This document shows, in pieces, positions 2,715-7,232 of a stretch of 9,926 bases of DNA. Positions within the stretch are counted from its first letter, which is position 1. Each line of letters starts with the position of its first letter. A program made the position numbers and the translations under genes. This DNA is from a virus (taxonomy: Duplodnaviria > Heunggongvirae > Uroviricota > Caudoviricetes): IMG/VR virus record IMGVR_UViG_2713896737_000012. One strand, 5' to 3'. Below the pieces are notes generated by a model, which saw only the letters and a program-made list of their open reading frames with translations, was not told the DNA's origin and did no database searches.

Positions 2715-3377
2715 TTACCCTGCAGCGCCCGCTTCAGTAACGGTGACTTCAGCCACTGCGGCGAACTGACCATTTCCGCTCACCACAGGGATCTGCACCT
2801 TACCTGTCGCCACGCCGTTTACCGTAATTGTCATATCTTTCACACTAATGGTGGCTTTCGACGGATCGGCGGAAACCGCTCTGAACGTCTTGTCTGTTGC
2901 ACTTTCCGGCTCAAAAGAAACCGTCAGGGTGGTTGTTTTCCCTTTTGCCACCGTACCGGATGTCGGCGTCACCTTAATCGCACTGACCGGCGTAATTTTG
3001 CTGCGTTCTTCCGCTACAGAAGGTTTACCCACGTTAGTGACTTTCACCGTGCGGGTGATCACTTCTTTCGCCGTCACGGCCTTACCGATACTGCTGACCC
3101 AGCCACGAAACACATCCACCGTGCCATTCGGAAAACGGATTTTATAGGCCCGGACATCGCCGCTTTCAAACCAGCCTATAAGCCCTTTCTGGCCTTCCTC
3201 TCCCGGTTTCCAGGCCAGCGTAAAACTGGTATCACCTGCAGATTTCTGCCCCTGCCCGGTCGCGGTCCAGTCCGCGTCTTCATCATCCAGGTAGTTATCA
3301 TCGTAGGATTCTGCCGTCATCTCGCCCGGCGTCAGATCCTTCACCTTAGCCAGTCGCTGCCAGTCATCGTCTGACAA
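2715..3377 (-). CDS. V: Major tail (tube) protein V with C-terminal Ig-like domain; native N-terminus and start codon missing
   Basis: Translation (...[58 protein letters not shown]...[41 protein letters not shown]...) matches lambda gpV. The same frame is open upstream to a stop at 3498-3500 and already encodes [12 protein letters not shown] (lambda V residues ~9-20), but contains no ATG or GTG. The track start at 3377 is a TTG. Stop TAA at 2715-2717. Confidence 0.75.
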
Positions 3378-3436
3378 CGGGTTTGCATAGGCGTCACCCT
3401 GACCGTTATAAACCCACAGGGTGGTACCGGCTCCTT

Positions 3437-3703
3437 TTACCGGCTCCAGGGGAATTCGTGTTTCGGCTTGACGTAGCCCGGACGTAACACGCGGGTTTCA
3501 CCACCGCGATGACGCAGCACTTTTCCTTCAACAACCGGGGAGACATAGGCCGCCACCGGCGTTTTTCCGGTAATTTTGTCCAGCATCACCTCTTCGGTAT
3601 GGAAATTCACCGTACGGCGGAAAAACAGCTCCAGAAACAGCGCACGAAATTTCACTTTTTGTTCGGTATAACCGAGTAACTGGCGGGTCGTAAACAATCC
3701 CAT
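3437..3703 (-). pseudogene. E: Major capsid protein E remnant: about 82 N-terminal codons, then 5 out-of-frame codons and a stop
   Basis: ATG is the reverse complement of 3701-3703 with an AAAGGAAC RBS. MGLFTTRQLLGYTEQKVKFRALFLELFFRR...[31 protein letters not shown] aligns with the lambda gpE N-terminus (MSMYTTAQLLAANEQKFKFDPLFLRLFFRE...PGYVKPKHE). Homology stops at ...KPKHE and the frame then reads FPWSR-stop. Lambda gpE is about 341 aa. Confidence 0.8.
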
Positions 3704-3731
3704 AAATCAGTTCCTTTCATTCAGAAATCAG

Positions 3732-3753
3732 TCAGGCCACCGCGGTGGCCTGA
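3732..3753. promoter_or_regulatory. Perfect 22-bp palindrome TCAGGCCACCGCGGTGGCCTGA in the D-E intergenic space; predicted GC-rich RNA hairpin
   Basis: Read directly from the sequence: it is self-complementary over 22 bp, lies 8 nt past the D stop codon (3761-3763) and about 28 nt before the E start (3703). A function as attenuator, terminator or processing site is inferred only. Confidence 0.45.
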
Positions 3754-3760
3754 TAACGTG

Positions 3761-4108
3761 TTACGGCAGCGCCGCGTGACTCAGGGCACTGCCGGCAAAG
3801 GCATTTGCCTTTTTGTGTTCATCCACACTTTCAGGCCAGCGGATTGCCTCCGTCGCAAAGGTCCCCGACTTGTAATAGGTCAGTACCGTCTCTGTGCCTT
3901 CAAGCGGCAGTACCAGTATGCCAACTGCACTACCGGCTTTCTGTCCGTCCCAGACCACCAGTTTCCCGCTGGCTTCATCCAGCATCAGGGGCGTCAGTGC
4001 CGGTGTTGCCGAGGAAATCCCGCTGCTGCCTGTGGCGGTATGAGCCGGATCATTACCGGCAAAAATACGTACTTCCGCACGCTGTTCAGTGATGTTTTTC
4101 GTTACCAT
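3761..4108 (-). CDS. D: Head decoration protein D
   Basis: ATG is the reverse complement of 4106-4108 with a GGAGG RBS. The 115-aa product (...NDPAHTATGSSGISSATPALTPLMLDEASGKLVVWDG...YYKSGTFATEAIRWPE...) matches lambda gpD (110 aa; [37 protein letters not shown]...FYKSGTFRYEDVLWPE). Confidence 0.9.
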   Translation of the reverse strand: MVTKNITEQRAEVRIFAGNDPAHTATGSSGISSATPALTPLMLDEASGKLVVWDGQKAGSAVGILVLPLEGTETVLTYYKSGTFATEAIRWPESVDEHKKANAFAGSALSHAALP

Positions 4109-4144
4109 ATTGTAAAAACCTCCTGTTGATGGTCAGCACTGACT

Positions 4145-4960
4145 TCATGGCATGGCCATGAGCATTTTCACGTCCGCATCACCGTCTGCTGACGTCTGTG
4201 GCACGCCACCCTGTACCGCAGCCGGTGAATGGTTCGCCATGATGCGTTCAAACAGGGCGGTTGTGGATGCAGAGACCGGTTCTGCCTTACCTGATCCCGC
4301 AGCCAGCACAGCCCGGGCGCTCTCCACAGTCATTCCCGGGCAGGCAGCCAGCTGTTCAGCCTGCGCCTCAGCCCCTTTTGCCTCATCCAGTGCCATGATC
4401 TGATCACGGAGTGAGGGTCCGGCATCCGCCTGCGGTGAAGCAGCCAGGATCGGGCGGGCTTTTTCCACCGTCATCTCCGGCATCGCCGCCAGCGTTGCCG
4501 CCAGTTGTTCACGACCGTTCGCTTCTTCACACGCCATAATGCGATCGGCTTCACTCTGCGTGGATGCCACCGGCTGCTGCGGTGCCGCCGCGGCCAGAAT
4601 CGCCCGGGCCTGTTCAACGCTCATGCCCTGTTGTCCTGCCAGCATCGTGGCAAGCTGTTCACGTCCTTTCGCTTCCTGGCATGTCAGGATCCCCATCACT
4701 CGCTGGTTCTCCTGCGCGGCGGCTTCCGTTGCAGTTAATTGCGGCATAGTGCCTCCTCTGACATTACTGTTCAGCGCCGTGGCCATCACACTGATGGCAT
4801 CCGACGCATTGACTAATTCATCCGCCAGCCCGGCATCAATGCCGGACTGACCTTCAAAAACGGCGGCCTCTGTTCCCGTGACGGCATCAACAGACAGACC
4901 GGTAAACATGGCCACTTTTTCGGCAAACATCCGGCGCGCCGCATCAATGCGCTGCTGCAT
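4145..4960 (-). CDS. nu3: Possible nested in-frame scaffold protein (Nu3-like) from an internal start within C
   Basis: In lambda, Nu3 is translated from an internal in-frame start in C. Here an internal ATG (reverse complement of 4958-4960; Met231 in MQQRIDAARRMFAEK) sits 4 codons upstream of the position aligned to the lambda Nu3 start, with a weak GAGG about 11 nt upstream. This is by analogy only. Confidence 0.3.
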   Translation of the reverse strand: MQQRIDAARRMFAEKVAMFTGLSVDAVTGTEAAVFEGQSGIDAGLADELVNASDAISVMATALNSNVRGGTMPQLTATEAAAQENQRVMGILTCQEAKGREQLATMLAGQQGMSVEQARAILAAAAPQQPVASTQSEADRIMACEEANGREQLAATLAAMPEMTVEKARPILAASPQADAGPSLRDQIMALDEAKGAEAQAEQLAACPGMTVESARAVLAAGSGKAEPVSASTTALFERIMANHSPAAVQGGVPQTSADGDADVKMLMAMP

Positions 4961-5650
4961 GTTCTGGCGAACCTCTGCCGGTAAGGCTTCAAACTGATTG
5001 CCATCCACCTTGTGCGCCCCTGAGTAAATCAGCGTGATATCCACACCGGCCTGCGCCAGATGACCGGCATAGCTGACATGGCTCATCATCACGCCAATGG
5101 AGCCGATACGGGATGTCTGGGTAACCAGCCGTCGGGAGCAGGCCGACGCCAGCAGCATGGCTGCAGAACAGGCCGTGTCATTGCACAGTGCCCAGACCGG
5201 CTTCTGCTGACGGAGGCGGTAAATCATGTCAGCGCAGTCAAACGCGCCGGCGGCCTGCCCGCCCGGACTGTCAATGTCCAGCAGTACGCCCCGCACCTGG
5301 CTATCCGCCATTGCCTGCTGAAGACAGGCGACAATGCCGTCATAGCCTGTCATTCCGGAAAATGGCCGCATACCCCCCAGCCGGTGCACCAGCGTGCCGG
5401 TCACCGGCAGTACAGCAATACCGTTCACCACCCGGTAAACACGGGCCGGTCGTTTACCTCCGGCCATGTACTCGTCCGTTTCAGCCAGCATTCCGGGAGC
5501 ATCAAGCTGTACCTGCTGCTGTGGTACCGAAAGACTTGCTGCCCCCATCTCGCGCCCGAGCGCGCAAAAGAAAACCCGCGCATAGGCGGGCTCCAGAAGC
5601 AGCGGTTCATTGAATGCTGCGGCAATAATGTGTGAAAGATTACGTCTCAC
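4145..5650 (-). CDS. C: Head maturation protease / minor capsid protein C (S49 SppA-like) with a repeat-containing scaffold-like C-terminal region
   Basis: The 501-aa ORF has an N-terminus RRNLSHIIAAAFNEPLLLEPAYARVFFCAL matching lambda gpC (LRNLPHIASMAFNEPLMLEPAYARVFFCAL) and a conserved core (...PVWALCNDTACSAAMLLASACSRRLVTQTSRIGSIGVMM...LIYSGAHKVDGN...). The most upstream start in frame is a GTG (reverse complement of 5648-5650), overlapping the 3' end of B as in lambda. Exact start is uncertain. Confidence 0.88.
   Translation of the reverse strand: MRRNLSHIIAAAFNEPLLLEPAYARVFFCALGREMGAASLSVPQQQVQLDAPGMLAETDEYMAGGKRPARVYRVVNGIAVLPVTGTLVHRLGGMRPFSGMTGYDGIVACLQQAMADSQVRGVLLDIDSPGGQAAGAFDCADMIYRLRQQKPVWALCNDTACSAAMLLASACSRRLVTQTSRIGSIGVMMSHVSYAGHLAQAGVDITLIYSGAHKVDGNQFEALPAEVRQNMQQRIDAARRMFAEKVAMFTGLSVDAVTGTEAAVFEGQSGIDAGLADELVNASDAISVMATALNSNVRGGTMPQLTATEAAAQENQRVMGILTCQEAKGREQLATMLAGQQGMSVEQARAILAAAAPQQPVASTQSEADRIMACEEANGREQLAATLAAMPEMTVEKARPILAASPQADAGPSLRDQIMALDEAKGAEAQAEQLAACPGMTVESARAVLAAGSGKAEPVSASTTALFERIMANHSPAAVQGGVPQTSADGDADVKMLMAMP
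4256..4702 (-). repeat. Three diverged in-frame tandem repeats (~144-159 bp; ~48-53 aa) in the C/scaffold C-terminal region
   Basis: Protein units: RVMGILTCQEAKGREQLATMLAGQQGMSVEQARAILAAAAPQQP..., RIMACEEANGREQLAATLAAMPEMTVEKARPILAASPQ..., IMALDEAKGAEAQAEQLAACPGMTVESARAVLAAGSG.... DNA units are similar but not identical, so the duplication is old. Confidence 0.7.
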
Positions 5651-7232
5651 GGGGTGTTGTCTCCTCTTCCGGCCTGCGACTCTCCGCTATCTGCTGCTGA
5701 TACGCCTGCGCTATCCACACCGGACGTGAGAGTCCGGCTTTTTGCCGCTCTGCAGATTCCCTGACCTGCTGGCGGAAAATGTCCTGATAATCCTCGCCCA
5801 TCAGCGCCGGCTCTTTCTCATACGTGCTCAGTCCGGCCTCAATGCGCATCACCGATTCCTGAACCTCCTTGAGCCCGTCAATGGCCATTCTTCCGGCACC
5901 AATCCACTCTGCCCGTGACCAGGCTGATCGCGCCTGATAAAAATCAAAACGCGCCCGTGGCGGACGGATAATCCCCCGAAGAAGTGCCTCTTCCAGCCAG
6001 TAGGAAAACATCTGCGTGGCCAGCCGGGCCGCAATAAATTTTCGCCGCCCCATAAAATAGCGCCACGACTCATTGGCAGAGGCCCTGGCACTTGAATAAC
6101 TGACCTTCGAGTAATCACGGGACAACTGTTCGTAGGAAACGCCAAGACCGGCGGCGATATACCGCAGCAGCGCCTGTTCAAGCGCCGAAAATCCATTGTC
6201 TGAATCCTGCGCAGTCTGTAGTTTCAGATCATCCCCGGGGAAAAGGTGCGGAATTTTGACACCACCCAGCGTCACGTTATTCGTGTCATACCAGCTGGAG
6301 AACTTCTCCAGAATATTAATAAGCGGATTATCCTTCTGCCCCTGCGGCGCACCGGCGATATATTCAAAGGCCTTTTCGGTATCAAGGTCACTTTCAATCG
6401 TCGCTGCATACATGGCTTTCACAATGGCCGACTGAAGCTGTGTTGCCTGCAGGGAATCGAGCATCTTCAGCCGTTCCATGACGCTGTAAAACTGGTTGGC
6501 CCCACGGGTCTGCCCGTCCTCCACCGGCTCGAAAATATGCAGCATGGCCGGACGCCCGGTGGGAAGTTCACGCGGGATCCGTTCCCATCGTCCACTCCCG
6601 GAGCGAGGAAAATCATCCTCACAGATATGGTACGCAACGGCACGGCCATATCGATCGACCTCCACCCCGGCCCGCAGAAAACGGTTCCCCATACCGTGTC
6701 CTGGCGTGTCCACCCGTTTCGGACTCACGGCTTTAAAACGCGTACGGAATAACTGCGTGGTTTCCGTATCCCAGACCGGCTGCACAAAGATTTCGCCGTT
6801 AAACGCATGAACGCCCACACCTTCACGGATAAATTCCGTGAACGTGCGTTTTCCTTCCACGTCGATCTCGCCAGACATCCCTTCGGCGTATTCCGACCAG
6901 GCCGCCTCCACCTCATCGACAAAGCTTTTTGCTGCGGTCTCCCGCATCCCCAGCCAGCGCCAGTTCGGACGGTAGCTGATAAGAAACATATGCCCGACAA
7001 TGTGATCCTTATGCAGTGCCACCGCATTGGCCGCTATTCCGTTATTGCGCACCAGATCATCTGCCCGGGCATTCCCCAGACGCAACGCGGGCAGCAGGGC
7101 CGCATCGGCACTCTGCGCCGGTGGCAACCACTCCGCCATTTGCCCGCCAAATCCTGCACCGCCCCCGTTGTAGCTGAGACTCTCACGAAGCGGAACGCCG
7201 TTCACATCAATCAGGACAGGCGTTCGTTTCAT
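5640..7232 (-). CDS. B: Portal protein
   Basis: 530-aa ORF with ATG as the reverse complement of 7230-7232, overlapping the W stop as ATGA. It matches lambda gpB (533 aa) throughout, e.g. ALLPALRLGNARADDLVRNNG, FEPVEDGQTRGANQFYSVMERLKMLDSLQATQLQSAIVKAMYAATIES, LLRYIAAGLGVSYEQLSR, GRMAIDGLKEVQESVMRIEAGLSTYEKE. Confidence 0.93.
   Translation of the reverse strand: MKRTPVLIDVNGVPLRESLSYNGGGAGFGGQMAEWLPPAQSADAALLPALRLGNARADDLVRNNGIAANAVALHKDHIVGHMFLISYRPNWRWLGMRETAAKSFVDEVEAAWSEYAEGMSGEIDVEGKRTFTEFIREGVGVHAFNGEIFVQPVWDTETTQLFRTRFKAVSPKRVDTPGHGMGNRFLRAGVEVDRYGRAVAYHICEDDFPRSGSGRWERIPRELPTGRPAMLHIFEPVEDGQTRGANQFYSVMERLKMLDSLQATQLQSAIVKAMYAATIESDLDTEKAFEYIAGAPQGQKDNPLINILEKFSSWYDTNNVTLGGVKIPHLFPGDDLKLQTAQDSDNGFSALEQALLRYIAAGLGVSYEQLSRDYSKVSYSSARASANESWRYFMGRRKFIAARLATQMFSYWLEEALLRGIIRPPRARFDFYQARSAWSRAEWIGAGRMAIDGLKEVQESVMRIEAGLSTYEKEPALMGEDYQDIFRQQVRESAERQKAGLSRPVWIAQAYQQQIAESRRPEEETTPRET

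What the first reader, a model, noticed from the sequence alone, without database searches (positions are those of the whole stretch)
3704..3760. Perfect 22-bp palindrome between decoration gene D and capsid gene E
TCAGGCCACCGCGGTGGCCTGA is fully self-complementary and would fold in the mRNA into a hairpin with a ~9-bp GC-rich stem directly after the D stop, followed by the E RBS. No U-run follows, so a classical intrinsic terminator is unlikely. It is more plausibly an attenuator, a stabilising 3' hairpin or processing site that sets D:E stoichiometry, or a dimeric protein-binding site. It is the only strong secondary-structure element I found in an intergenic space here.
Basis: partly seen in the sequence, partly recalled or inferred. 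Interest (0 to 1): 0.4.

Follow-up and report, generated by a model that had tools for sequence, protein, structure and literature searches.

The report
Late-operon RNA hairpin after gene D
The perfect 22-bp palindrome is real, and it is the phage-21 version of an RNA hairpin that most lambda-like phages examined carry between their head-decoration and major-capsid genes (a textbook terminator in lambda itself), so it is an ordinary, already recognised kind of feature whose exact role is still unsettled.

Summary
Observation confirmed. TCAGGCCACCGCGGTGGCCTGA lies at window 3732-3753, in the 57-nt spacer between the D/shp homologue (3761-4108, minus strand) and the 5' remnant of the E/gp7 homologue (starts at 3703). 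A perfect palindrome this long appeared in 3 of 1000 shuffles.

The window is a defective phage-21-type prophage of E. coli O157:H7. Phage 21 has the identical spacer.

Comparison settles what it is. Lambda, Gifsy-1, mEp237 and about 25 other enterobacterial, Aeromonadaceae and Vibrio lineages carry a GC-rich hairpin at the same junction. Their stem sequences differ, wobble pairs are G.U on the sense strand only, and most are followed by T6-T8. The mEp237 GenBank record annotates it as a rho-independent terminator.

The 21 type shares the core GGCCRC..GYGGCC, but its U-tract is replaced by CUGAUUUCUG.

In phage 21 and lambda, the only long gaps between Nu1 and J's downstream neighbour are D-E, E-FI, I-J and the gap after J. 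Each holds a hairpin.

Most likely it is a sense-strand mRNA hairpin of the terminator class with a weakened U-tract. Q-modified polymerase reads through it, and it probably acts mainly as a 3'-exonuclease barrier and leaky stop for unmodified polymerase.

A DNA protein-binding site, an RNase III site and RBS occlusion are not supported. In this prophage it is a relic. Low interest.

The parts
3732..3753 (-). Perfect 22-bp palindrome. In the late mRNA it forms a hairpin with a 9-bp stem (UCAGGCCAC/GUGGCCUGA) and a CGCG loop.
   Evidence: I1; folds (-16.8 kcal/mol); identical in phage 21; 3 of 1000 shuffles reach 22 bp.
3704..3760 (-). Complete 57-nt D-E intercistronic spacer: 7 nt, then the hairpin, then a 28-nt tail that carries the E ribosome-binding site.
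   Evidence: Spacers that lack a hairpin in relatives are only 12-26 nt.
3722..3731 (-). Tail CUGAUUUCUG immediately 3' of the stem. This is a degenerate U-tract: 5 U in 10 nt, and none adjacent to the stem.
   Evidence: One search lists it as terminator-like only under lenient criteria. The T-score is 1.1-2.2, against about 3-5 for lambda-type tails.
3701..3719 (-). E ribosome-binding region (AAAGGA) and ATG start codon. It is highly conserved in the 21 lineage.
   Evidence: RBS annotated in phage 21 records. Only 2 of 28 spacer sites are variable in 86 haplotypes.
3761..4108 (-). Head decoration gene (lambda D / phage 21 shp homologue), 115 aa, intact.
   Evidence: Pfam HDPD E=4e-24; 98% DNA identity to phage 21.
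3453..3703 (-). 5' remnant (about 83 codons) of the major capsid gene (lambda E / phage 21 gene 7 homologue). It is truncated by a deletion.
   Evidence: Pfam Phage_cap_E profile positions 1-80 of 329 only. Homology to phage 21 ends at window 3453. PGAP labels it as an incomplete major capsid protein.

Best explanation
The palindrome encodes a hairpin in the sense (late) mRNA. It is the phage-21-lineage form of a conserved 'punctuation' hairpin that lambda-like head modules carry between the decoration gene (D) and the major capsid gene (E). In lambda and most relatives this hairpin is a canonical intrinsic (rho-independent) terminator.

The 21 form keeps the ancestral-looking core (GGCCRC-loop-GYGGCC). 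It has lengthened the stem to 9 perfect pairs and lost the U-tract (UGACUGAUUUCUG in place of UUUUUUU).

Inferred mechanism:
- During lytic growth, Q-modified RNA polymerase reads through the site, and the hairpin forms behind it.
- Its main effect in this lineage is probably post-transcriptional. It would act as a barrier to 3'-to-5' exonucleases, protecting the upstream D-containing segment once the long late transcript is cut downstream.
- A second hairpin after E would do the same for E.
- It would act at most as a weak, leaky stop for polymerase that has not been modified by Q.

In this particular window the prophage is defective: E is truncated and the terminase genes are disrupted. The element is therefore an inherited relic here.

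Shown: the position, the structure, its conservation across lineages with sequence turnover, its strand specificity, and the weak U-tract. Inferred: read-through by Q-modified polymerase and the exonuclease-barrier role.
For: 1. The hairpin is real and unlikely by chance.
2. The sequence is identical in phage 21 itself and present in 1911 of 5426 complete E. coli genomes.
3. A GC-rich hairpin sits at the same D-E junction in lambda (AAAGGCCGC CUGU GCGGCU + U7), in Gifsy-1 (AAGGCCGC GAA GCGGCCUU), and in prophages of Serratia, Buttiauxella, Erwinia, Kluyvera, Enterobacter, Citrobacter, Klebsiella, Trabulsiella, Pluralibacter and Aeromonadaceae. It is also present in two Vibrio phages and coliphage 705R4. 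The stems and loops differ between them.
4. In a hand-built alignment, 95.9% of cells pair and 5 of 9 pairs show changes on both sides.
5. Non-Watson-Crick pairs in established hairpins are G.U on the sense strand (about 20 variants) and never A.C. This points to an RNA structure on the late transcript.
6. Most lineages have T6-T8 directly after the stem. The mEp237 record annotates the element as a rho-independent terminator.
7. The 21-type and lambda-type hairpins share the core GGCCRC..GYGGCC.
8. In phage 21 and in lambda, the only intergenic gaps longer than 40 nt between Nu1 and the gene after J are D-E, E-FI, I-J and the gap after J (lambda's annotated L-K gap excepted as a gene-start annotation artefact). 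Each holds a hairpin of -12 to -23 kcal/mol.
9. The U-tract is not the conserved part. Lambda has U7 after D but none after E. Phage 21 has none after D but U6 after E. Three sublineages of the 21/Gifsy clade keep strong but unrelated stems with poor U-tracts.
10. In 86 haplotypes of the 21 lineage, the lower five stem pairs never vary, while third codon positions vary at 44-59% of sites.
11. [quoted passage not shown]
Against: - No transcript data were available, so neither termination, read-through nor stabilisation is shown.
- If the purpose were to stabilise mRNA for abundant proteins, the equivalent hairpins after I and J (low-copy proteins) are unexplained.
- The widespread, well-kept U-tracts in the lambda lineage argue that termination itself is selected there, so the 21 form could simply be a decaying terminator.
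- Within the 21 lineage there are no compensatory double changes in the stem. Rare variants break single pairs as often as they preserve them (G.U and A.C both occur).
- The adjacent 28-nt RBS spacer is as conserved as the lower stem, so stem conservation may partly reflect general low divergence.
- A Providencia relative does without any hairpin.
- The covariation alignment was built from sequences already chosen as hairpins, so it is partly circular.
Confidence: 0.55

Rival explanations
1. It is still primarily a working intrinsic terminator, though a leaky one. It stops RNA polymerase that has not been modified by Q, such as read-through past tR' or spurious initiation inside the prophage. 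This keeps the very efficiently translated E gene silent in lysogens. Q-loaded polymerase ignores it.
For: - It is the top terminator-like hit of the window scan.
- It is the homologue of canonical terminators at the same junction.
- The suggestion that such terminators stop spurious, non-antiterminated transcription has been published (PMC8022706).
- Hairpins after I and J fit an insulator role better than a role in stabilising mRNA for abundant proteins.
Against: - The tail CUGAUUUCUG has no U next to the stem, and the bottom stem pairs are A-U rich.
- The T-score of 1.1-2.2 is below that of lambda-type tails (about 3-5). It is also below the cut-off usually applied by terminator predictors (about 2.5, recalled from memory).
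- The carefully annotated phage 21 genome marks terminators at I-J and after J but not here.
- A terminator placed after the lysis and packaging genes protects little.
Confidence: 0.27
2. It is a neutral relic: a former terminator whose U-tract has decayed in the 21 lineage. The stem persists only because divergence within the lineage is low. Its perfect symmetry would be maintained or restored by hairpin-templated (quasipalindrome template-switch) mutation and not by selection.
For: - There are no compensatory stem changes within the lineage.
- Single-pair-breaking variants exist at low frequency.
- One common variant (G14T, roughly a quarter to a third of loci and haplotypes) breaks the top pair.
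- The centre changed symmetrically from CCGCGG to CCATGG, as template switching would produce.
- Providencia relatives lack the hairpin altogether.
- Many carriers are defective prophages.
Against: - Three other sublineages of the same clade (Gifsy-1, the L310 type, Trabulsiella L089) have unrelated but equally strong hairpins at the same place. The structure is therefore re-created or kept through sequence turnover.
- The lower stem is invariant in 86 haplotypes, while synonymous sites vary at 44-59%.
- Spacers without a hairpin collapse to 12-26 nt, so unselected spacer DNA is evidently lost.
- The one-step intermediate CCACGG exists, so template switching need not be invoked.
Confidence: 0.1
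3. It is a DNA-level element: a binding site for a dimeric protein, or a cruciform or recombination site that marks a mosaic boundary.
For: - Perfect two-fold symmetry includes the loop centre (CGCG; the variant CATG is also symmetric).
- One prophage has an IS200 inserted immediately 3' of it (L042).
Against: - The sequence is not conserved across lineages, while pairing is.
- Wobble pairs are strand-specific (G.U only on the sense strand).
- There is a single copy in the phage 21 genome and none with up to 3 mismatches elsewhere.
- It lies inside a transcribed operon, far from promoters, cos or att.
- Common variants break the symmetry (CGCGTT, CACG).
Confidence: 0.03
4. It is a translational control element. 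The hairpin, or a long-range pairing nucleated by it, would occlude or expose the E ribosome-binding site and so couple E translation to D translation.
For: The 101-nt minimum-free-energy fold pairs D codons (CCCUGAGUCA) with the E start region (UGAUUUAUGGG).
Against: - That fold has an ensemble frequency of 0.046 and disappears in a 140-nt context.
- Mean unpaired probability of positions -15 to +6 is about the same with or without upstream sequence in 21 (0.54 vs 0.50), Gifsy-1 and others. No pattern is conserved across lineages.
Confidence: 0.05

Closest known systems
Rho-independent terminator between the head-decoration and major-capsid genes of lambda and N15-type phages (annotated in Enterobacteria phage mEp237, NC_019704.1, 5938-5958; the same element is at lambda 6097-6125)
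   Same: - Same junction, same strand, and a similar distance to the E start.
- GC-rich stem of 6-9 bp with a 3-5 nt loop.
- Shared core GGCCRC..GYGGCC.
   Different: - The 21 form has no U-run (CUGAUUUCUG against U7).
- Its outer pairs are UCA/UGA instead of AAA/UUU.
- It has an A-U pair where lambda has G-C.
- It is a perfect DNA palindrome, including the loop centre.
Intra-operon terminators of lambdoid (P22-like, phage L) late operons
   Same: They are terminator-type hairpins inside an operon that is transcribed from one promoter by antiterminated polymerase. Their function is acknowledged as unknown, with partial termination or stopping spurious transcription proposed (PMC8022706).
   Different: The head modules are different (P22-like, with no D/E genes), and those hairpins sit at module ends, not between the two most abundant head proteins.
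Intercistronic stabiliser hairpins in polycistronic mRNAs, such as the REP hairpins between malE and malF and the puf operon hairpins (named from memory, not checked here)
   Same: A stable stem-loop sits just after a highly expressed cistron and has no U-tract. It is expected to block 3'-to-5' exonucleases and protect the upstream segment.
   Different: There is no sequence relation to REP, and the element is single-copy. The stabilising effect is not shown here.
RNase III processing sites of phage T7 late mRNAs (named from memory)
   Same: They are also punctuation structures between cistrons of a long phage transcript.
   Different: RNase III substrates need about 20 bp of duplex. This stem is 9 bp, or 13 with wobbles and a bulge, so the defining feature is not met.

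Membership tests
Intrinsic (rho-independent) terminator | GC-rich stem of about 5-14 bp with a 3-8 nt loop on the transcribed strand, downstream of a stop codon | tested here: met
   9-bp stem (6 G-C pairs), 4-nt loop, -16.8 kcal/mol, starting 7 nt after the D stop.
Intrinsic (rho-independent) terminator | U-rich tract of about 7-9 nt starting within 0-2 nt of the stem, with several U at the stem-proximal positions | tested here: not met
   The tail is CUGAUUUCUG, with no U adjacent to the stem. The T-score is 1.1 (2.2 with the extended stem), against about 3-5 for lambda-type tails. It passes only the lenient rule of 5 T in 8 nt used. It is not annotated as a terminator in the curated phage 21 genome.
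Intrinsic (rho-independent) terminator | Transcript 3' ends at the tail, in vivo or in vitro | not testable with these tools
   No RNA data are available here. Term-seq of O157 Sakai exists (GSE143631, cited in PMC7547250) but could not be read.
Conserved D-E intercistronic hairpin of lambda-like head modules | A hairpin in the spacer between an HDPD-family decoration gene and a Phage_cap_E major capsid gene, on the sense strand | tested here: met
   Gene families confirmed. A hairpin is present at this junction in all but one of the lambda/21-like lineages and in three more distant phages.
Conserved D-E intercistronic hairpin of lambda-like head modules | Pairing is maintained through sequence change, and wobble pairs are valid only on the sense RNA | tested here: met
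   95.9% of cells paired and 5 of 9 pairs with double changes (the alignment was hand-picked). G.U is present and A.C absent outside the 21 lineage. Within the 21 lineage itself there are no compensatory changes.
RNase III processing site | About 20 bp or more of near-continuous duplex RNA | tested here: not met
   The maximum is 13 pairs, including two wobbles and a bulge.
Palindromic operator or dimeric protein-binding site | Sequence (not merely pairing) is conserved among relatives. Such sites are usually repeated or next to a promoter or other regulatory site. | tested here: not met
   The sequence differs between lineages while pairing is kept. There is one copy in phage 21. The site is inside the late operon, with no convincing promoter nearby.
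Any curated Rfam RNA family | A match to a covariance model | tested here: not met
   No hit with E up to 10 in window 3400-4200 on either strand.

The most novel reading that the evidence does not exclude
In the phage 21/Gifsy clade the D-E hairpin has been kept, and repeatedly rebuilt with unrelated stems, after losing its U-tract. This would mean selection for a role independent of termination. The four 'punctuation' hairpins of the late operon (after D, E, I and J) would then define decay-resistant segments of the 20-kb late transcript. Segmental mRNA stability, and not only translation initiation, would help set the very high D and E output. A more speculative version is that the D 3' end plus the hairpin is released as a stable 3'-derived small RNA in lysogens that carry many such prophages.
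Probability: 0.25. Interest if true: 0.4.

Novelty: new member of a known kind. Interest (0 to 1): 0.2.

Why it matters
On its own it matters little. It is a lineage-specific form of a hairpin long visible in lambda's sequence and annotated as a terminator in at least one related phage. In this window it sits in a dead prophage.

The comparative picture is mildly useful. Lambda-family late operons are tightly packed except for four gaps, and each gap holds a hairpin. The hairpin is the conserved part, not the U-tract. The purpose of terminator-like hairpins inside an antiterminated operon is still stated to be unknown in the literature. The 21-type element, which has a strong stem and no U-tract, is a natural separation-of-function allele. 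It could be used to test whether these structures act through termination or through RNA stability.

Tried and rejected
1. Rfam scan of the region, both strands, E up to 10: nothing found.
2. Long-range pairing between D's 3' codons and the E start, which appeared in one MFE fold. It was rejected because it has low ensemble frequency, is absent in a longer context, and has no consistent effect on RBS accessibility in eight lineages.
3. An apparently alternative hairpin upstream of a 21-type E gene (L042). It turned out to be the end of an IS200 inserted just 3' of the palindrome, not a D-linked allele.
4. Two loci that seemed to lack the hairpin:
   - L034 (28-nt spacer): a frameshift in D makes the ORF run through an intact palindrome.
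   - L365 (17-nt spacer): not inspected; I assume the same explanation.
5. Literature searches for a specific description of the lambda or phage 21 D-E hairpin, for Term-seq of lambda, and for the Sampson et al. 1988 paper. These gave only a general statement on intra-operon terminators (PMC8022706) and a pointer to O157 Term-seq data I could not access. PMC4424060 is not held.
6. Within-lineage covariation: no compensatory stem changes were found, so that test is uninformative.
7. The promoter scan found only one weak consensus match (4136-4109, minus strand, upstream of D), which is fewer than expected by chance.
8. DNA-level repeat or operator idea: single copy.

Full report
**1. What is in the sequence**

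The late genes of this window lie on the minus strand. The ORFs and Pfam matches give the following order:
- a terminase small-subunit remnant;
- terminase large subunit (7419-9404);
- gpW (7229-7435);
- portal (5640-7232);
- S49 protease/scaffold (4145-5650);
- head decoration protein D/shp (3761-4108; HDPD, E=4e-24);
- an 88-codon ORF starting at 3703 that matches only profile positions 1-80 of 329 of Phage_cap_E;
- the lambda-type tail tube protein V, then G, T and the start of H.

The 57 nt between the D stop and the E start (3704-3760) contain TCAGGCCACCGCGGTGGCCTGA at 3732-3753. This is a perfect 22-bp palindrome. On the mRNA it forms a 9-bp stem with a CGCG loop at -16.8 kcal/mol.

A perfect palindrome of this length arose in 3 of 1000 dinucleotide shuffles of the window.

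**2. Where the window comes from**

The D-E region is 100% identical to a prophage of E. coli O157:H7 strains and 97.6% identical to phage 21. The phage 21 spacer is identical. Related D-E segments occur in 1911 of 5426 complete E. coli genomes.

The prophage is defective.
- Homology to phage 21 runs from the terminase gene to phage 21 position 6603 (E codon 84). It resumes at 9148, two codons into V, with about 10 nt of overlap at window 3453-3462.
- The 3' three quarters of E, together with FI, FII, Z and U, are therefore deleted.
- In the matching RefSeq record, an ISEc8 interrupts the small terminase gene and the large terminase gene is marked frameshifted.
- Whatever the hairpin does in a live phage, here it is a relic.

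**3. Comparison with relatives**

I collected D-E junctions from annotated phages, IMG/VR contigs and GTDB genomes. I then extracted the spacers by script.

A GC-rich hairpin occupies this junction in almost every lambda-like head module:
- lambda: AAAGGCCGC CUGU GCGGCU followed by U7;
- Gifsy-1: AAGGCCGC GAA GCGGCCUU;
- a second Salmonella-type lineage: CAGGCCGC ACA GCGGCCUG followed by UUCUGUUUUU;
- Trabulsiella: AAUCGGGUC..GACCUGAUU;
- Serratia: GGCUGCC AAUU GGCGGCC;
- about twenty Kluyvera, Enterobacter, Citrobacter, Klebsiella, Buttiauxella, Erwinia and Aeromonadaceae prophages;
- coliphage 705R4 and two Vibrio phages whose E proteins are about 30-40% identical to gp7 over the aligned region.

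The stems and loops differ between these lineages. In a hand-built 19-sequence alignment, 95.9% of cells pair and five of nine pairs show changes on both sides. This alignment is partly circular, because the sequences were chosen as hairpins.

Non-canonical pairs in established stems are G.U on the sense strand in about 20 variants, and never A.C. This identifies the structure as an RNA hairpin on the late transcript, not a DNA-level palindrome.

Where no hairpin exists (a Providencia prophage, phage Chi, a cyanophage), the spacer is only 12-26 nt. The extra spacer length evidently exists to hold the hairpin.

**4. Relation to a terminator**

In most lineages the stem is followed directly by T6-T8, which makes it a textbook intrinsic terminator. 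The GenBank record of mEp237 annotates it as a 'rho-independent terminator'.

The 21-type hairpin shares the core GGCCRC..GYGGCC with the lambda type. It has one compensated G-C to A-U change. Its outer A-U pairs, and the U-run that supplies them, are replaced by UCA/UGA plus CUGAUUUCUG.
- Its T-score is 1.1-2.2, against about 3-5 for lambda-type tails.
- The window scan lists it as terminator-like only because its rule is lenient.
- The carefully curated phage 21 genome annotates terminators at I-J and after J but nothing at D-E.

**5. Operon-wide pattern**

In both phage 21 and lambda, the genes from Nu1 to J overlap or are separated by fewer than 16 nt. The exceptions are four gaps: D-E, E-FI, I-J and the gap after J. 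Lambda's annotated L-K gap (148 nt) I set aside as a gene-start annotation artefact. Each of the four gaps holds a hairpin of -12 to -23 kcal/mol.

The U-tract is not the constant feature.
- Lambda has U7 after D but only UGUUUCUCUG after E.
- Phage 21 has none after D but U6 after E.
- Gifsy-1 has partial tracts at both junctions.
- Three sublineages of the 21/Gifsy clade keep strong but unrelated stems with poor U-tracts.

This favours a function carried by the hairpin itself.

**6. Variation within the 21 lineage**

I compared 86 gap-free haplotypes.
- The lower five stem pairs never vary.
- Third codon positions vary at 59% of sites in D and 44% in E.
- Variation is concentrated in the loop and the top pair.
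  - Loop: CGCG, CAUG, CACG and UGCG all occur.
  - Top pair: G14U, in roughly a quarter to a third of loci and haplotypes, shortens the stem to 8 bp.
- Rare variants break single pairs. No compensatory stem changes were seen.
- The 28-nt segment that carries the RBS is equally conserved (2 of 28 sites variable).

The within-lineage signal is therefore weak. The case for selection rests on the between-lineage comparison.

**7. Mechanism**

Shown:
- a sense-strand RNA hairpin;
- positional and probable sequence homology to the lambda D-E terminator;
- a degenerate U-tract;
- one of four conserved hairpins in the operon.

Inferred:
- Late transcription in these phages is carried out by Q-modified polymerase, which reads through terminators. 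This is established knowledge for lambda and phage 21 Q.
- The hairpin should therefore not stop productive late transcription. It would form behind the polymerase.
- In this lineage its most plausible effect is as a barrier to 3' exonucleases. That would stabilise the D-containing segment, with the post-E hairpin doing the same for E.
- It would retain at most a weak capacity to stop unmodified polymerase.

I give this combined reading about 0.55. The rivals are:
- a still-functional leaky terminator or insulator as the primary role (0.27);
- a neutral relic (0.10);
- translational control (0.05), because a long-range pairing seen in one fold is not robust and predicted RBS accessibility is unaffected by upstream sequence in eight lineages;
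- a DNA protein-binding site (0.03), because the site is single-copy, its sequence is not conserved, and its wobble pairs are strand-specific.

RNase III processing is excluded by the stem length.

**8. Known or new**

A published genome paper states that terminators inside lambdoid late operons are common and that 'their roles are not known'. It proposes partial termination or stopping spurious, non-antiterminated transcription (PMC8022706). I found no paper in the held library that describes the phage 21 palindrome specifically. Neither phage 21 GenBank record annotates it.

It is a new, or at least unannotated, member of a known kind. Interest is low. The one useful point is that it offers a natural hairpin-without-U-tract allele for testing what these punctuation hairpins do.

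Noticed in passing
window 3453-3462 (junction); E remnant 3453-3703 (-), V 2715-3455 (-): A 2.5-kb deletion joins codon ~84 of the major capsid gene to the second or third codon of the major tail gene V, with about 10 nt of overlap between the two alignments. The rest of E, plus FI, FII, Z and U, is missing, so the prophage cannot make heads.
   Followed up: yes
window ~9612-9926, and 7419-9404 (-): By comparison with O157:H7 strain TR01, the window's right end is the end of an ISEc8 element inserted in the small terminase gene (Nu1). The large terminase gene is annotated there as frameshifted. The 185-aa ORF at 9319-9876 is therefore an IS/Nu1 read-through artefact.
   Followed up: partly
L001 2937-2987 (phage 21 E-FI), L003 2862-2902 (lambda), L002 2905-2961 (Gifsy-1); L143 15633-15692 and 19176-19233: A second strong hairpin follows the major capsid gene in nearly all E-type phages examined. 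In lambda and phage 21, the only long gaps between Nu1 and J's downstream neighbour (D-E, E-FI, I-J, after J) each hold a hairpin. U-tracts are distributed reciprocally: lambda has one after D, phage 21 has one after E.
   Followed up: partly
L042 ~1-440 (IMG/VR contig 2654587509_000011): In one E. coli prophage an IS200-family element (Y1 transposase, with its own terminal hairpin CCTCCGGC TAT GCCGGAGG) is inserted within or just after the CTGATT that follows the palindrome, upstream of an intact E gene.
   Followed up: partly
L034 ~1100-1500: In one prophage a frameshift near the 3' end of D makes the D reading frame run through the intact palindrome and stop inside the spacer.
   Followed up: yes
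21-lineage loci, palindrome positions 11-12: The centre of the palindrome exists as CCGCGG, CCATGG (a symmetric double change that is still a perfect palindrome, seen in dozens of loci) and the one-step intermediate CCACGG (one locus). This could reflect stepwise change or quasipalindrome template switching.
   Followed up: partly
L092-L107, L125-L133, L136 and others (GTDB genome contigs): Short, low-coverage contigs identical to lambda D-E DNA occur in assemblies of unrelated taxa (Neobacillus, Kitasatospora, Shewanella, Bradyrhizobium, Akkermansia, Prevotella and others). This is almost certainly lambda control-DNA contamination.
   Followed up: no
hit H22, MT713136.1 (Aeromonas phage AP1) 250152-250396: A 245-bp stretch that is 98% identical to the E. 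coli 21-type major capsid gene sits near the end of a 254-kb Aeromonas jumbo-phage record, with no annotated feature. It looks like an assembly chimera or contamination.
   Followed up: no
window ~4330-4700 (-), within the protease/scaffold gene 4145-5650: The C-terminal scaffold part of the gpC/Nu3 homologue contains three tandem repeats of about 37 aa (..EAKGREQLATMLAGQQGMSVEQARAILAA..). These correspond to the 'Tri box' repeats annotated with unknown function in the phage 21 record M81255.
   Followed up: no
L272 16388-16915 (O157:H7 TR01, outside the window): A sodC (Cu/Zn superoxide dismutase) cargo gene lies on the opposite strand between the tail assembly gene I and gene J of this prophage, at the position of the I-J hairpin gap.
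   Followed up: no
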